A stretch of 64,000 nucleotides of DNA from Fistulifera solaris (lineage: Eukaryota). The position numbers were made by a program, and so were the translations under genes. Positions 2,144 to 6,504 of this stretch are shown here, one piece after another (the stretch's first letter is position 1; each line of letters starts with the position of its first letter). The notes under the pieces are model-generated. The model saw only the letters and a program-made list of their open reading frames with translations. It did not search any database and had not been told where the DNA came from. The stretch is from positions 2,294,001 through 2,358,000 of the forward strand of contig AP026123.1 of the NCBI GenBank assembly GCA_030295235.1, written 5' to 3'.

Positions 2144-4000
2144 TTACTTTCCTTCCATCATCATTTTAAGGTCACTAGAGGGATCTCCAATCGGCATAAT
2201 GTTGTAATTTTGCTGCAAAACACTCAAGATTCCCGGGCTGATGTACGCCGGCAGCGAAGGACCGAGTCGAATGTTCTTGACGCCCAAATGTAACAGAGTG
2301 AGCAGCACGGCAGCTGCCTTTTGCTCCAAATGAGAAATTGCCAAGGAAAGAGGCAGCTCGTTCACCGACTCCAGCTTCATCGCCTTGGCTAATTCAAGTG
2401 CTACTACTACCGCGGAATAAGAGTCGTTGCACTGTCCCATGTCGAGAACGCGGGGAATGGTGGCGCCGTTCGGAAGTGTGATCTGATTGGTAGGGAGATC
2501 ATCGAATTTGAACTTTTCAGACTGTAAGATGCGATTCTTCGCACAGCCAAGTGTGAGAATAATGCTATCTTCCGGGCTTTCGTCAGCCAGATCTGTAAAA
2601 TACGACCGATTCCACTGGGAACCATCACAGCCACCAATGAGTAAGATGCGAGACAACTTTCCAGCCGTGGCGGCTTCAATGATCTGATCCGCTAGAGGCA
2701 AAACCGCTCTGTGATTGAATCCAATGGTTCGGAAAGTGGCCGGCTCGGCAGTCTGCTCAAAGCCCTTGCATTGTTTCGCTTGCTTGATAACGGCCGAAAA
2801 GTCGCGGTTCTTCACATGCTTGATGCCGCTGAGGCCCGTAGCATTGATGGTGTACAAACGATCTTCATAAGTTTTGCGCGGCTTCAAAACACAGTTGGTA
2901 GTCACAACGACGGGGCCCGGGAAGCAACTAAATTCAAAGTTTTGATTCTGCCACGCCGTACCGTACGATCCAGCCAGATGAGGGAAAGCATGAAGCTTCG
3001 GGTACGAATGGGCGGGTAACATTTCTCCGTGCGTGTAAACTTGAATACCAGTGCCTTCGGTTTGCTTCAACAGATGATACAAATCCACCATGTCGTGCCC
3101 GGATACGAGAATGCACTTTCCTTTGACGGCCGAAGTTCGAACGGGTGTCGGGCAAGGCGCTCCTAAAAGTTCTGCATGCGCCGCATCCAAAGCGGCGAGG
3201 ACCGACGTGTTGACTTCGCCAATCCTCAATGCAGCCTGCAGCAATCCATTGACATCCGCTGTATCGTCCGCTAGCTTGGCATAAATTTCATGAATGGCGA
3301 CCATGACGCTCTCGTCGACACTCGATCCATCAATCTCTTGACGCAACTGATGAACGTGCTCGGCGTAGGCACACAGTCCCTTCATACCGTACGTAGCGAG
3401 CTCGTGCAACGAGAAAGCATCTTCGTGATTCATCACCTTGGCTCGTTCCGGAACCGAAACTGGCAGAGCGGCTTCTTGAATTTGCGACTCGGTCTTGTTG
3501 AACCAGTCCAAGTGTGCCACAGGATGGCTCGGAGTCGCCACACCCGCCGCTGCGAATTCTTTCTTGAGGGCTTCACCTTGCTGTATGTATTCGAGAATGC
3601 GACTCTCATCAAAATTCACATTGGTGAGCGTACTGAACGTCGCTTCGAGCGTCCACGTGTTGGCCTTGGCGAGGACATTGGCCGCAGCCCCACTGGCGCG
3701 GGCGGCCGTGCACCACAATGCGACGGATTTTAACACATGAATCAGGGCATCTTGGGCGGCCGAAGTCTCGGGCGTCTTACCACAAACTCCGACGGTCGTG
3801 CAGGCGTGATGATCCGCCGTTTGCTCACATTGACGGCAGAACATGGCGGATTCCGTCGACTGCCAGCGGGCCGTCATGGGAGAGGAAGGAGTCGTCGTTC
3901 TCGTTAAGCCTTGAGGCAAAGCTTGTGTAGCGACCAGGCTCTTGGCGAGCGTCGATCGAAGCTGCGACGAAGCCGCAACGCGGCGTAGAGTGCTCAACAT
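2144..4000 (-). CDS. hcp: Hybrid-cluster protein (hydroxylamine/NO reductase, prismane) with a predicted mitochondrial presequence
   Basis: MFCRQCEQTADHHACTTVGVCGK (C-x2-C-x8-C-x5-C cubane motif); hybrid-cluster motifs SGHD, THGEM, TTNC, GGCDG, LGCAK, GQCNDSY, EQKA; about 50-aa R/S/T-rich N-terminal extension with no acidic residues; intronless. Confidence 0.95.
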   Translation of the reverse strand: MLSTLRRVAASSQLRSTLAKSLVATQALPQGLTRTTTPSSPMTARWQSTESAMFCRQCEQTADHHACTTVGVCGKTPETSAAQDALIHVLKSVALWCTAARASGAAANVLAKANTWTLEATFSTLTNVNFDESRILEYIQQGEALKKEFAAAGVATPSHPVAHLDWFNKTESQIQEAALPVSVPERAKVMNHEDAFSLHELATYGMKGLCAYAEHVHQLRQEIDGSSVDESVMVAIHEIYAKLADDTADVNGLLQAALRIGEVNTSVLAALDAAHAELLGAPCPTPVRTSAVKGKCILVSGHDMVDLYHLLKQTEGTGIQVYTHGEMLPAHSYPKLHAFPHLAGSYGTAWQNQNFEFSCFPGPVVVTTNCVLKPRKTYEDRLYTINATGLSGIKHVKNRDFSAVIKQAKQCKGFEQTAEPATFRTIGFNHRAVLPLADQIIEAATAGKLSRILLIGGCDGSQWNRSYFTDLADESPEDSIILTLGCAKNRILQSEKFKFDDLPTNQITLPNGATIPRVLDMGQCNDSYSAVVVALELAKAMKLESVNELPLSLAISHLEQKAAAVLLTLLHLGVKNIRLGPSLPAYISPGILSVLQQNYNIMPIGDPSSDLKMMMEGK

Positions 4001-4648
4001 GGCGATCGAAAGAAGGGGAAAGGTTTTGATTTATGTCCGCAAAGCAAAACAGATTTATGACGATCCGAAAAGATTCTTTATTTTGGTGAAACGAAAGGTA
4101 TTTCAATGAATGGATTCGGATTTCAAGCATTCACATTGTGGTCTACACTTTCGATCCGCCGATCCGAGAAAAAATGCGAACCTGCAACGCTGCACTCGAC
4201 CGTACTATTTCTGAGTGTCACAACACTTCGGATTGCGGGGAGTTTTGTAATAGTTCACAAATTTATCGGAATCTGAATAATCTCCCCGCGAAATTCGAAG
4301 TCACGCCTGTTCTACCGGAGAACGAAAGTACTTTTTCTATGGTAGTAGAAAGGTATGAGGTCACAGACATTGTCCCTCGGTCACAAAATTCCGGAACAAG
4401 GGCTTGATGAGCATCAACAGCCGCAAAAAATCCGAACTCGCATCTTCAAAAAAATATCCCAAACGATGCATCGTTGTTGTTCGTCACGTTCCTTCCAATG
4501 GCTTGTTTCAAGACTTCTTGGATAGAAAGCGCAGGACGGACTTGACACCAAACAATGAGTTCGGATTCGTCGGGGTAGACATACACCGAGTAAAGATCGG
4601 ATACCGACACCACAATTGATTCATGCCCACAAATTAGAATATCCTCGA

Positions 4649-6504
4649 ATGATGAATCGTTTCTTGTTGCGCTCCACAAGAGCGTCTCTTCCCATGGCGG
4701 TGTCGCGGCATCTACGCTGGTTGTCAACACAATCAGTCAAAGACTCATTCAAAAGGTATCCATTCTTTACGGAAGTCAAACAGGGACGGCTCAACTTTTT
4801 GCCATGCAATTGCAACAGGCACTGCAATGTGCCGGGAAGGAATGTACAATGAAAGCGATGGCCGAAGTTCCACCATCCTCTTTGACCGATGATTGTCTGC
4901 ACTTGTTTCTGATCAGTACGACGGGGGTCGGTGAGTTTCCTTCCAACGCCAAATCGTTTTACGATGGTTTGTCGTCGTCACAGAACGAAGCGGCGGCAAT
5001 TCCATACGCCATCTTCGCCCTCGGAAATTCACAGGCACATCCCAATCACTTTTGTGCCGCCGGCAAAGCACTCCAACAAGCGTTTCAGACCAAATTTCCG
5101 AGTGCCGTTCAGGTTTTGCCGCTGCGATTGGGAGATGACGCTGTCTGTATTGACGACGAATTCGATCAGTGGCAAGAGAAAATCCTTCGAACAATTGCAA
5201 AAGGAACGGAAAGCACCGACGACGAGACTCCCACGAGCGAAACATCGACACCGGAGACGGAGACGAATGTGCCCACGAGTCGGATACCGACAAATTACCC
5301 GGAATTGCACTTGTTGGCAACTCAACAAAGCCATGACGACACGCCAGACCTGCTGGGCATTTTCCCTAGTTTTTATAAGGAGAACTGTCGTCAACGAATG
5401 GAAGTCACGTACAATAGGAACATGCATCCCCACGCCGTCGTGGATACGGGGTTGCATGAAATGCGCTTGTCTTTACCGTCGGACTTGTCGTATGAAACGG
5501 GGGATCACATCATGATATACCCCCGAAATCCAGATCTTTTAGTTCAAGCCTACCTCAGTTATGTCTTGGAAGATGGTGTTGACCCCAGCCAAGTCGTGAA
5601 CGAAGCCAGTCAAGCGGGGCATTATCCGCACCCTTCTGGAATATCGGTGTACCAAACACTCAGTCACTGCGTCGATCTGACAGCGCCTCCATCACCATCC
5701 TTTGCGCGCTGGCTCACCTCATCGAAGTCGTTGGAATACAGACAACAAATATCCCAGCCACGGCGGACAGTGCTGGACTTGGTCATGGAGAATTCCCAGG
5801 TAGAGAAAGTGTCGCTGGCGGATTTGTTGTATCAACTGCCGCCCCTGCAGCCTCGCTACTATTCCATTGCTTCCGCTGCCTCTGTGCATCCGTACGAAGT
5901 ATACCTTACTTACAGACCCGTTCATTACATATCGTCACGAGGAAGTCTACGAGACGGTCTTTGCACAACGTTCCTGCAAAACTGCAAGCCACCCCAAACG
6001 GTCGTCGCTGGATTGGTATCAAATCCCGCCTTTCGCCTTCCGTCGGACCCTCAAGTTCCGGTGATTTTTATCGGTGGAGGATGTGGTGTTGCCCCGATAC
6101 GAGGTTTTCTGGAGGAACTGGTGCATCAAGGCACGAGTCGGCCCAAAAATGTTTCGCTTTACTTGGGTTTTCGTGATCGGGCAGATCAAGTTTATCATCA
6201 GTTAGTCGAAGAGAGCCAAGGATTCCTCCAAGAGTGTCACATCGGATATGCCAGTGTTGGATCTCTCGTGACGAAGGCTTTGGCGCGCAACGCTGAATCC
6301 CTGCATCAACAATTGGTCAGCCAAGGTGCGCATGTATTTATCTGCGGAGGTGCGGCATCCTTCGGTGCTGCCATTCGAAAAACAGTGACCGATCTACTCT
6401 GGCAAGGCAACTGTTCGGGAACGATTCCTGATGCCGAGGCAGCTACAACGTTCCTTCAAAATATGTCATCGGAAGGACGATGGCATGAGGATTTGTCAGA
6501 TTGA
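4649..6504 (+). CDS. Diflavin (FMN-FAD) oxidoreductase of the cytochrome P450 reductase family, with a predicted mitochondrial presequence; one apparent frameshift at about 4751-4754
   Basis: ATG at 4649 gives MMNRFLLRSTRASLPMAVSRHLRWLSTQ. Adding one A in the run at 4751-4754 joins it to VSILYGSQTGTAQLFA (flavodoxin P-loop), STTGVGEFPSNA, FALGNS, YETGDH, PRYYSIAS, GLCT, GGGCGVAPIRGF, YLGFR and FICG. Confidence 0.9.

What the first reader, a model, noticed from the sequence alone, without database searches (positions are those of the whole stretch)
6060..6504. The reductase has lost the NADPH-specificity signature and may use NADH
Seen: the C-terminus is GRWHEDLSD*, with no aromatic residue where CPR has GRYSLDVWS. 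The usual FSR...KxYVQ 2'-phosphate-binding segment is replaced by IGYASVGSLVT, and the Gly-rich loop is GGGCGVAP rather than GPGTGIAP. There is no ER anchor and no fused haem domain. Established: in CPR the terminal Trp shields FAD, and replacing it, or the Ser/Arg/Lys phosphate ligands, shifts preference toward NADH. Inference: this is a natural NADH-type diflavin reductase, matching Hcr chemistry and a mitochondrial matrix location.
Basis: partly seen in the sequence, partly recalled or inferred. Interest (0 to 1): 0.72.

Follow-up and report, generated by a model that had tools for sequence, protein, structure and literature searches.

The report
Diatom flavin reductase lacking NADPH clamp
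A diatom gene sitting back-to-back with a nitric-oxide-handling iron-sulfur enzyme encodes a relative of cytochrome P450 reductase that has lost the residues that normally tie this enzyme class to NADPH, so it probably accepts NADH as well, a natural version of a switch that protein engineers have tried to build.

Summary
Observation confirmed. The ends align with rat CPR (model 1-584 = 78-678), so Ser replaces Trp677. The change is family-wide, not decay. Of 120 listed homologs, the 116 with complete ends all have Ala/Ser there; Arg597 survives in 2, Tyr604 in 0; Asp632 is Gly in 119; the Ser/Cys/Asp catalytic triad is invariant. Homoeolog dN/dS is 0.078. The genome also keeps an ordinary CPR. 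'NADH-type' is only partly supported. The acid that marks NADH enzymes occurs in 10 of 120, and comparable engineered mutants give NADH/NADPH ratios of 0.2-1.2, not reversal (PMC5817062). Best reading: a soluble, probably mitochondrial CPR paralog with relaxed, NADH-competent specificity that feeds the adjacent hybrid cluster protein (HCP). The head-to-head pair recurs in 5 of 5 diatom-type loci with enough flank. A separate reductase clade fused to HCP lost the same clamp independently. A missing base at 4749/4750 is an assembly error. The scan noted the HCP pair before on other DNA. No kinetics exist here.

The parts
4649..6504 (+). Diflavin reductase gene, 618 aa once the one-base assembly error is allowed for; no intron seen
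   Evidence: P0005 is 100% identical over 584 aa and reads through; no joints in laid contigs; Pfam FMN + FAD + NAD domains
4649..4749 (+). Mitochondrial presequence-like N-terminus; no transmembrane anchor
   Evidence: 5 R/K and 0 D/E in the first 25 aa, maximum hydropathy 0.3; the same pattern in 63 of 77 scored homologs; TM-like stretch in 0 of 77 against 42 of 45 CPRs. Crude rule, no targeting predictor run
4749..4750 (+). One base missing in this assembly (false frameshift)
   Evidence: C put in behind 4749 in 4 of 4 runs at full depth; homoeolog in frame
4762..5172 (+). FMN (flavodoxin) domain
   Evidence: PF00258, E 8e-21, residues 5-141 of P0003
5398..5973 (+). FAD-binding and connecting domain, with the catalytic Ser (rat S457) at 5863-5865
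   Evidence: PF00667, E 4e-24; Ser in 120 of 120
6073..6096 (+). Gly-rich loop with P533>G and T535>C
   Evidence: G/A in 120 of 120 and C in 120 of 120 in the diatom-type set; C in only 3 of 16 non-diatom members; E. coli Hcr also has Cys here
6172..6174 (+). Arg567 equivalent (pyrophosphate ligand), retained
   Evidence: 120 of 120; role from PMC12472590 passage
6241..6273 (+). Former 2'-phosphate clamp: S596>A, R597>S, K602 lost, Y604>L; shortest loop of the set (7 residues, 2 of 120)
6343..6363 (+). Catalytic Cys630 retained; Asp632 gate residue replaced by Gly; Arg634 replaced by Ala here (Arg in 106 of 120)
6475..6504 (+). C-terminus: Asp675 retained (6490-6492), Ser in place of the FAD-shielding Trp677 (6496-6498), terminal Asp, stop
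   Evidence: A90/S26 among 116 complete ends, none aromatic; terminal D107/N7; register
4001..4648 (.). 648-base shared upstream region between the two start codons (candidate bidirectional promoter)
   Evidence: sequence; promoter function inferred, not tested
2144..4000 (-). Hybrid cluster protein (HCP) gene with presequence-like N-terminus; likely electron acceptor
   Evidence: PF03063, E 1.5e-139; the only HCP loci in the genome are this one and its homoeolog; Cys spacing C-x2-C-x8-C-x5-C, unlike E. coli Hcp

Best explanation
A soluble paralog of cytochrome P450 reductase, probably in the mitochondrial matrix, that has given up NADPH discrimination. SHOWN (sequence, alignment, model): the FMN-FAD-NAD(P) fold and the Ser457/Cys630/Asp675 triad and Arg567 are intact. 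The 2'-phosphate/adenine ligands Arg597, Lys602 and Tyr604 are gone, and so is the coupled Trp677/Asp632 gate. This holds across the family. INFERRED: with no aromatic lid, the nicotinamide can stack on FAD without the 2'-phosphate binding that pays for moving the Trp in CPR. With no basic clamp NADPH has no advantage, but with no acid it is not excluded either. The enzyme should therefore use NADH about as well as NADPH (within about tenfold), and NADH is a likely donor in the matrix. Electrons go NAD(P)H > FAD > FMN > HCP iron-sulfur cluster, the job Hcr does in E. coli. Odds on coenzyme: relaxed 0.5, strict NADH 0.27, so NADH-competent about 0.77. Odds that HCP is the acceptor in diatoms: about 0.75.
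For: Site counts (101 of 120 lack all of R/K597, K/R602 and Y604; 62 clusters at 70% identity all have A/S at W677). Controls: 22 of 22 CPRs, 7 of 7 CysJ-like and 6 of 6 NOS-like keep S596 and R597 and a terminal aromatic; the genome's own CPR is intact. Trp677 and the Asp632 loop act as one gate (PMC12472590), and both are lost together here. Engineered precedents: W676A 0.236, W677A 1.156, BM3 W1046A 0.629, BM3 R966N/K972H/Y974F/W1046D 0.620; strong reversal came with an added Asp (nitrate reductase S920D/R932S, 65) (PMC5817062). Purifying selection: dN/dS 0.078 overall, 0.054 in the NAD domain. HCP is head-to-head in the homoeolog and in 5 of 5 diatom-type metagenome loci with at least 1 kb upstream (4 independent, one Skeletonema-like), against 0 of 45 other diflavin loci. 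64 of 65 long HCP hits are diflavin-HCP fusions; none of the 64 has the SR..KxYVQ clamp.
Against: No kinetics and no ligand-bound model. Ser/Thr596 is kept in 90 of 120 and Arg567 in all, so a new phosphate site cannot be excluded; cytochrome b5 reductase D239T, with Thr at this column, prefers NADPH tenfold. Arg298, a pyrophosphate ligand, is also lost (1 of 107 against 13 of 19 CPRs), which should weaken binding of both coenzymes. The one non-diatom family locus with flank (L017) has no HCP upstream. Mitochondrial import is inferred from a crude rule. P. tricornutum and T. pseudonana have HCP but are listed as not producing N2O (PMC7412212 Table 2), so HCP's reaction in diatoms is open. The one organellar diflavin reductase I found assayed, Giardia GiOR-1, prefers NADPH about 30-fold (PMC3044749); it was not in my tree.
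Confidence: 0.5

Rival explanations
1. Strictly NADH-specific (more than tenfold). NADPH is excluded by some other feature, such as the conserved acids at the C-terminus or at the His607 column.
For: All basic 2'-phosphate ligands are lost, and in this protein the Ser596 hydroxyl and Arg634 too. Acidic E674 (107 of 116), terminal D (107) and D/E607 (104 of 120) are conserved. The clamp was lost independently in the HCP-fused clade, which has Ser-His-Asp in 46 of 59. The E. coli HCP partner is annotated NADH oxidoreductase.
Against: An acid at the Ser596 or Arg597 column occurs in only 10 of 120. Asp at the His607 column is also common in NADPH-type CPR and NOS rows (9 of 22, 5 of 6). Removing the ligands without adding an acid gave ratios near 1.
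Confidence: 0.27
2. Still NADPH-preferring through a rebuilt site: Ser/Thr596, backbone amides of the new Ser-x-Gly-Cys loop and Arg567/Arg634 hold the 2'-phosphate, and Phe636 replaces Tyr604 on the adenine.
For: S/T596 in 90 of 120, Gly at +3 in 104 of 120, R634 in 106 of 120, F636 in 114 of 120. W676A alone still favours NADPH about fourfold.
Against: This protein lacks Ser596, the Gly-Cys loop and Arg634, yet stays under purifying selection. The loop varies from 7 to 35 residues, which does not suit a specific phosphate site.
Confidence: 0.15
3. It no longer uses a pyridine nucleotide and takes electrons from a protein or quinol donor, or runs in reverse.
For: Four of the five named basic or aromatic nucleotide ligands are lost (R298, R597, K602, Y604).
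Against: The hydride-transfer triad, Arg567 and the Gly loop are invariant. The NAD domain has the lowest dN/dS of the parts compared (0.054 against 0.061 for the FMN domain).
Confidence: 0.06
4. Decayed pseudogene or a wrong 3' end.
For: The window's assembly shows a frameshift at 4749/4750.
Against: The frameshift is absent in 4 of 4 runs. The same ending type occurs in 116 of 116 complete homologs. dN/dS is 0.078. The model has pLDDT 91.5.
Confidence: 0.02

Closest known systems
NADPH-cytochrome P450 reductase (CPR/POR, EC 1.6.2.4; rat 1AMO, 4YAF)
   Same: Best sequence and structure matches (E 2e-49; Foldseek E 2e-43, TM 0.80; Z 37.6). Same three-domain order and catalytic triad. Groups with CPRs in both trees (99).
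   Different: No membrane anchor and a presequence instead. No Trp677, Asp632, Arg597, Lys602 or Tyr604. A separate paralog, since the genome keeps a normal CPR.
Engineered NADH-using CPR and P450 BM3 mutants (W676A, W677A, W1046A, R966N/K972H/Y974F/W1046D)
   Same: The same positions are changed, to the same kind of residue (Ala/Ser at the Trp).
   Different: Natural, fixed across a family, and combined with D632>G and a terminal Asp. The mutants lose most of their efficiency (relative efficiency 0.016-0.079).
E. coli Hcr (NADH oxidoreductase of class II Hcp)
   Same: Encoded beside hcp. FNR-type FAD/NAD module. Cys in the Gly loop.
   Different: Hcr is 322 aa with FAD and [2Fe-2S] (title of a cited paper) and no FMN domain. 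The diatom HCP has a different Cys spacing.
Eukaryotic diflavin-HCP fusion proteins (Cyanophora, chytrids, Basidiobolus, oomycetes, Chromera, Sphaeroforma); noted for Cyanophora as HCP 'fused to sulfite reductase' in PMC8003979 Table 4
   Same: A diflavin reductase tied to HCP, with the 2'-phosphate clamp lost (0 of 64).
   Different: A separate clade, near NDOR1/PNO-like rows (98). One clade with this family is rejected at p-AU 0.011. They keep Phe/Tyr at the flavin-shielding position (55 of 59).
NADH-cytochrome b5 reductase and NADH nitrate reductase
   Same: FNR-type NAD domain with a Gly-Gly-x-Gly loop.
   Different: They carry an Asp at or next to the Ser596 column (own-genome copies); this family mostly does not.
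Giardia mitosomal GiOR-1
   Same: A soluble organellar diflavin reductase.
   Different: Measured to prefer NADPH about 30-fold and described as Tah18-like (PMC3044749). Not included in my alignment.

Membership tests
Diflavin reductase superfamily | Flavodoxin-like FMN domain + connecting/FAD domain + NAD(P) domain in one chain | tested here: met
   Pfam, model pLDDT 91.5, Foldseek and VIA
Diflavin reductase superfamily | Ser457/Cys630/Asp675 hydride-transfer triad | tested here: met
   120 of 120, 120 of 120, 116 of 116 complete ends
Canonical CPR | N-terminal transmembrane anchor | tested here: not met
   Maximum 19-residue hydropathy 0.3; 0 of 77 scored homologs against 42 of 45 CPRs
Canonical CPR | FAD-shielding Trp677 and Asp632 gate | tested here: not met
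   Ser and Gly here; none aromatic among 116; Gly in 119 of 120
Canonical CPR | Ser596/Arg597/Lys602/Tyr604 2'-phosphate clamp | tested here: not met
   Ala/Ser/absent/Leu here; family R597 2, K602 2, Y604 0 of 120
Canonical CPR | Reduces P450s with NADPH | not testable with these tools
   Needs an assay
NADH-specific FNR-type reductases (cytochrome b5 reductase, nitrate reductase) | Asp/Glu at the adenosine 2'-OH position (Ser596 column or next) | tested here: not met
   Ala-Ser here; acid in 10 of 120; present in own-genome controls
NADH-specific FNR-type reductases (cytochrome b5 reductase, nitrate reductase) | Measured NADH preference | not testable with these tools
   Needs kinetics
Hcr (E. 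coli type) | FAD/NAD module with a C-terminal [2Fe-2S] domain and no FMN domain | tested here: not met
   Pfam shows flavodoxin and no Fe-S domain; Hcr sequence
Hcr (E. coli type) | Conserved linkage to hcp | tested here: met
   Homoeolog plus 5 of 5 diatom-type loci; 0 of 45 controls; 0 of 1 non-diatom member
Hcr (E. coli type) | Transfers electrons to HCP | not testable with these tools
   Needs an assay; the complex predictor was not available
HCP-fused diflavin reductases | One clade with the fused domains | tested here: not met
   Separate in both trees; p-AU 0.011 on the quick LG+G4 tree, with groups fixed after the first tree was seen
NDOR1/Tah18, MTRR, CysJ, NOS reductase | Tree placement with these groups | tested here: not met
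   The family lies on the CPR side of a branch with support 99. Group labels are mine, from Pfam architecture and motifs, not curated

The most novel reading that the evidence does not exclude
A natural NADH-preferring diflavin reductase family, widespread in protist mitochondria (diatoms, a rhizarian, a choanoflagellate). It evolved from CPR in steps: first Trp>Phe and Arg>His in a sister group, then loss of the aromatic lid and the Asp632 gate. In diatoms it is the dedicated electron donor to HCP. A second, unrelated diflavin lineage reached the same solution by fusing to HCP and also dropping the phosphate clamp. Eukaryotes would thus have replaced Hcr twice, giving mitochondria an NADH-driven NO/hydroxylamine-reducing module.
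Probability: 0.35. Interest if true: 0.82.

Novelty: new variant of a known kind. Interest (0 to 1): 0.62.

Why it matters
From my own knowledge (recalled), characterised diflavin reductases are NADPH enzymes with an aromatic lid on FAD. Nine literature searches turned up no natural exception and no description of this family, though the library lacks most subscription journals. A family that has fixed Ala/Ser at the lid and kept its catalytic core is a natural test of what the Trp/Asp gate is for. It is also a ready template for NADH-driven P450 biocatalysis, where engineered switches lose most of their activity. It names a candidate electron donor for eukaryotic mitochondrial HCP, which makes HCP's disputed reaction in diatoms testable with two purified proteins.

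Tried and rejected
Decay or wrong 3' end: rejected. Common origin with the HCP-fused reductases: this was my expectation, and it was rejected. GGGCG as an NADH marker: rejected, since the Cys is not kept in non-diatom members. Loss of Arg298 as diagnostic: weak, because 6 of 19 CPR rows also lack it, as does the genome's own CPR. The profile search for more non-diatom members was swamped by plant CPRs; it added 3 new members and 1 diatom-like fragment among the 120 listed, so the breadth outside diatoms is poorly sampled. In the DVF rows one alignment column (R567) was misaligned and is not used. Rows dropped: 3 of 210 without the cut motif; 13 of 120 diatom-type and 4 of 23 CPR rows without the anchor motif for R298; 43 of 120 and 4 of 49 not scored for N-termini; 8 of 13 diatom-type loci had under 1 kb upstream and could not be judged for linkage; 5 of 64 fusions lacked the loop motif. 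Contig depth was not used to rank expression, and the lack of cover between the genes in X3/X4 is not counted as evidence; 4 of 8 listed runs were laid. A predicted complex of the FMN domain with HCP was not available, so binding is untested. Elmore and Porter 2002 is not held. No mention of the reductase was found in Smith 2019 main text or supplements with the terms tried. Look-ups of earlier findings by sequence and by place found nothing. Supplements of bioRxiv preprints were not visible and could bear on the not-in-print claim.

Full report
What is there. The finding covers the NAD(P)-binding domain of a diflavin reductase on the + strand (ATG 4649, stop 6502-6504). A homolog search gave a 100% match named FisN_20Hh172 of the diatom Fistulifera solaris, 618 aa. 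The genome holds a homoeolog, 91% identical. The gene lies head-to-head, 648 bases apart, with a hybrid cluster protein (HCP) gene at 2144-4000 on the - strand. In this assembly the first 34 codons are out of frame. Contigs of 4 of 4 laid runs carry one more C behind 4749, and the homoeolog and P0005 read through, so this is an assembly error that hides a presequence-like N-terminus.

Observation. The sequence alignment to rat CPR and the structural overlay (model pLDDT 91.5; model 1-584 on rat CPR 78-678, Z 37.6, rmsd 3.0) put the ends in register. Ser therefore sits at Trp677; the chain is not truncated. The internal motifs are bridged by contigs of all four runs. The listed contig crossing the stop extends only 4 letters beyond it, so the end rests mainly on the homoeolog, the second assembly and the family.

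The change is family-wide. The best 120 of 879 hits were aligned with controls; the set includes P0005 itself, and 12 rows carry an organism name or tag, all read as diatoms, one truncated and one inferred from its tag. Rat numbering was carried over through a stored CPR-like row. Kept: Ser457 120/120, Cys630 120/120, Asp675 116/116 complete ends, Arg567 120/120. Lost: Trp677 is Ala 90 or Ser 26, never aromatic; Arg597 is Arg in 2 and Lys in 11; Lys602 is Lys in 2 and Arg in 4; Tyr604 in 0; Asp632 is Gly in 119. No row keeps a base at both 597 and 602, and 101 of 120 lack all three clamp residues. The set forms 62 clusters at 70% identity, all with Ala/Ser at the lid. Controls keep Ser596-Arg597 and a terminal aromatic: 22 of 22 CPR-like, 7 of 7 CysJ-like, 6 of 6 NOS-like. 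The genome's own ordinary CPR has the full clamp and Trp. Homoeolog dN/dS is 0.078, and 0.054 in the NAD domain. The Fistulifera protein is among the most stripped: it also lacks Ser596 and Arg634 and has the shortest loop.

Does that make it NADH-type? Passages of PMC12472590 describe NADPH binding as Arg597/Lys602 first, then Arg567/Arg298, then Asp632-loop retraction that rotates Trp677. The family has lost the first step and both parts of the gate, so NADPH exclusivity is very unlikely to survive. But NADH-specific relatives carry a positive marker. The genome's own cytochrome b5 reductase-like protein has Asp at the Ser596 column and its nitrate reductase has Asp at the next one (the enzyme names are my reading of the motifs). 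This protein has Ala-Ser; the family has an acid in 10 of 120 and Ser/Thr in 90. Table 1 of PMC5817062 (passages) gives specificity ratios of 0.236 for human W676A, 1.156 for rat W677A, 0.629 for BM3 W1046A and 0.620 for the BM3 mutant lacking Arg, Lys, Tyr and Trp together. It gives 65 for nitrate reductase given an Asp; an Asp alone in Anabaena FNR gave only 0.12. The CPR rows stand under a heading for the opposite direction, and I read them as NADH/NADPH. The precedents therefore predict relaxed, not reversed, specificity. Arg298 is lost too (1 of 107, against 13 of 19 CPRs), which would weaken binding of either coenzyme. The Cys of GGGCG matches E. coli Hcr but is not kept outside the diatom set.

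Origin and spread. A search of cluster representatives found non-diatom members with the same ending. Two are named: the rhizarian Lapot gusevi and the choanoflagellate Mylnosiga fluctuans. In a 108-row FastTree and a 52-row IQ-TREE quick tree the family is one group (96 in the latter) on the CPR side of a branch with support 99. Next to it, with weaker support (96 and 82), is a group from amoebae, a rhizarian and an apusomonad that mostly ends in Phe (7 of 9) and has His at 597 (5 of 9): a plausible intermediate. The motif columns were not left out of the trees, and group labels are mine. A crude rule finds presequence-like N-termini in 63 of 77 scored diatom-type rows and 4 of 5 scored rows in each of the two non-diatom sets, against 2 of 45 CPRs; transmembrane-like stretches occur in 0 of 77 against 42 of 45. 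A supplement row of PMC6779911 lists the P. tricornutum HCP as predicted mitochondrial.

Partner. HCP is head-to-head in the homoeolog and in 5 of 5 diatom-type metagenome loci with at least 1 kb upstream (L018, L021/L022 which are one sequence, L024, and the Skeletonema-like L042). It is absent beside 45 other diflavin loci with such flank and beside the one non-diatom member, L017. A search for long HCP homologs gave 65 hits, 64 with an FAD domain fused in front of HCP, from Cyanophora-type, chytrid, Basidiobolus, oomycete, Chromera and Sphaeroforma sources. PMC8003979 (passages) notes the Cyanophora fusion in a table footnote. These fused domains form another clade near NDOR1/PNO-like rows (one clade with this family rejected at p-AU 0.011). 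They keep Phe/Tyr at the lid in 55 of 59, yet none of 64 has the phosphate clamp. Two independent HCP-linked lineages dropping the clamp is the best indirect argument that the physiological donor includes NADH. Against a simple NO-to-N2O story, PMC7412212 (passages) lists both model diatoms as having HCP but not producing N2O, and calls HCP's role in microalgae unsolved. Binding to HCP was not modelled, because the complex predictor was not available.

Mechanism. Shown: fold, triad, loss of clamp and gate, conservation, linkage. Inferred: import into mitochondria; hydride from NADH or NADPH to an unshielded FAD; transfer to FMN; one-electron delivery to HCP. Odds: relaxed specificity 0.5, strict NADH 0.27, rebuilt NADPH site 0.15, no pyridine nucleotide 0.06, decay 0.02; HCP as acceptor in diatoms about 0.75.

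Known or new. It works like Hcr but is not one, and it descends from CPR but fails three of CPR's defining features. Nine searches showed no paper on this family or on a natural lidless diflavin reductase. Other papers seen only as passages: PMC2945787, PMC10328945, PMC6779911, PMC3044749, PMC1484493; the rest were seen as search listings only. That all characterised diflavin reductases use NADPH is my recall. Earlier AI notes of this scan report the same head-to-head pair in another diatom and in Naegleria. I had reached the pairing before reading them, confirmed it for diatoms, and could not check Naegleria. Verdict: real, conserved, a new variant of a known kind; the NADH claim is plausible in a weaker form and needs one kinetic experiment. 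Interest 0.62.

Noticed in passing
window 4749-4750: One base is missing in this assembly and hides the reductase's presequence; all four laid runs have it.
   Followed up: yes
L093 about 5578-5602 (homoeolog HCP on G000:C4): The homoeologous HCP has a one-base gap against the window copy that splits its frame. Probably another assembly indel; not checked with reads.
   Followed up: partly
P0246-P0309: 64 eukaryotic diflavin-reductase-HCP fusion proteins, with the reductase N-terminal. A separate clade with a Ser-His-Asp motif (46 of 59) in place of the NADPH clamp.
   Followed up: partly
homologs of window 6241-6273: Most relatives have two Cys flanking the former phosphate loop. Both are present in 74 of 120, neither in 23 (Fisher p 8e-9, not corrected for kinship): a possible disulfide or metal site, lost in Fistulifera.
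   Followed up: partly
P0169, P0183, P0191, P0202, P0206, P0238, P0239: A sister group of anchor-less, presequence-bearing CPR paralogs ending in Phe, from amoebae, a rhizarian and an apusomonad. Function not examined.
   Followed up: partly
L096:1242-3671 (G000:C6): A pyruvate:ferredoxin oxidoreductase-like region fused to a diflavin reductase (PNO-like, label from motifs), pointing to anaerobic pyruvate metabolism in this diatom.
   Followed up: no
P0131, P0157, P0173, P0184, P0215, P0222: Proteins with 3 to 6 tandem flavodoxin domains, five of them ahead of an FAD/NAD module.
   Followed up: no
P0105: A family member with EF-hand domains inserted between the FMN and FAD domains; could be a gene-model artefact.
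   Followed up: no
window 4389-4394: A CCGGAA core like the nitrate-sensitive promoter motif quoted in PMC6779911 lies between the two genes, but it is not kept at that place in the homoeolog.
   Followed up: partly
L095:2011-4220 (G000:C11): The ordinary CPR copy also appears split over two frames in this assembly, which suggests more single-base errors.
   Followed up: no
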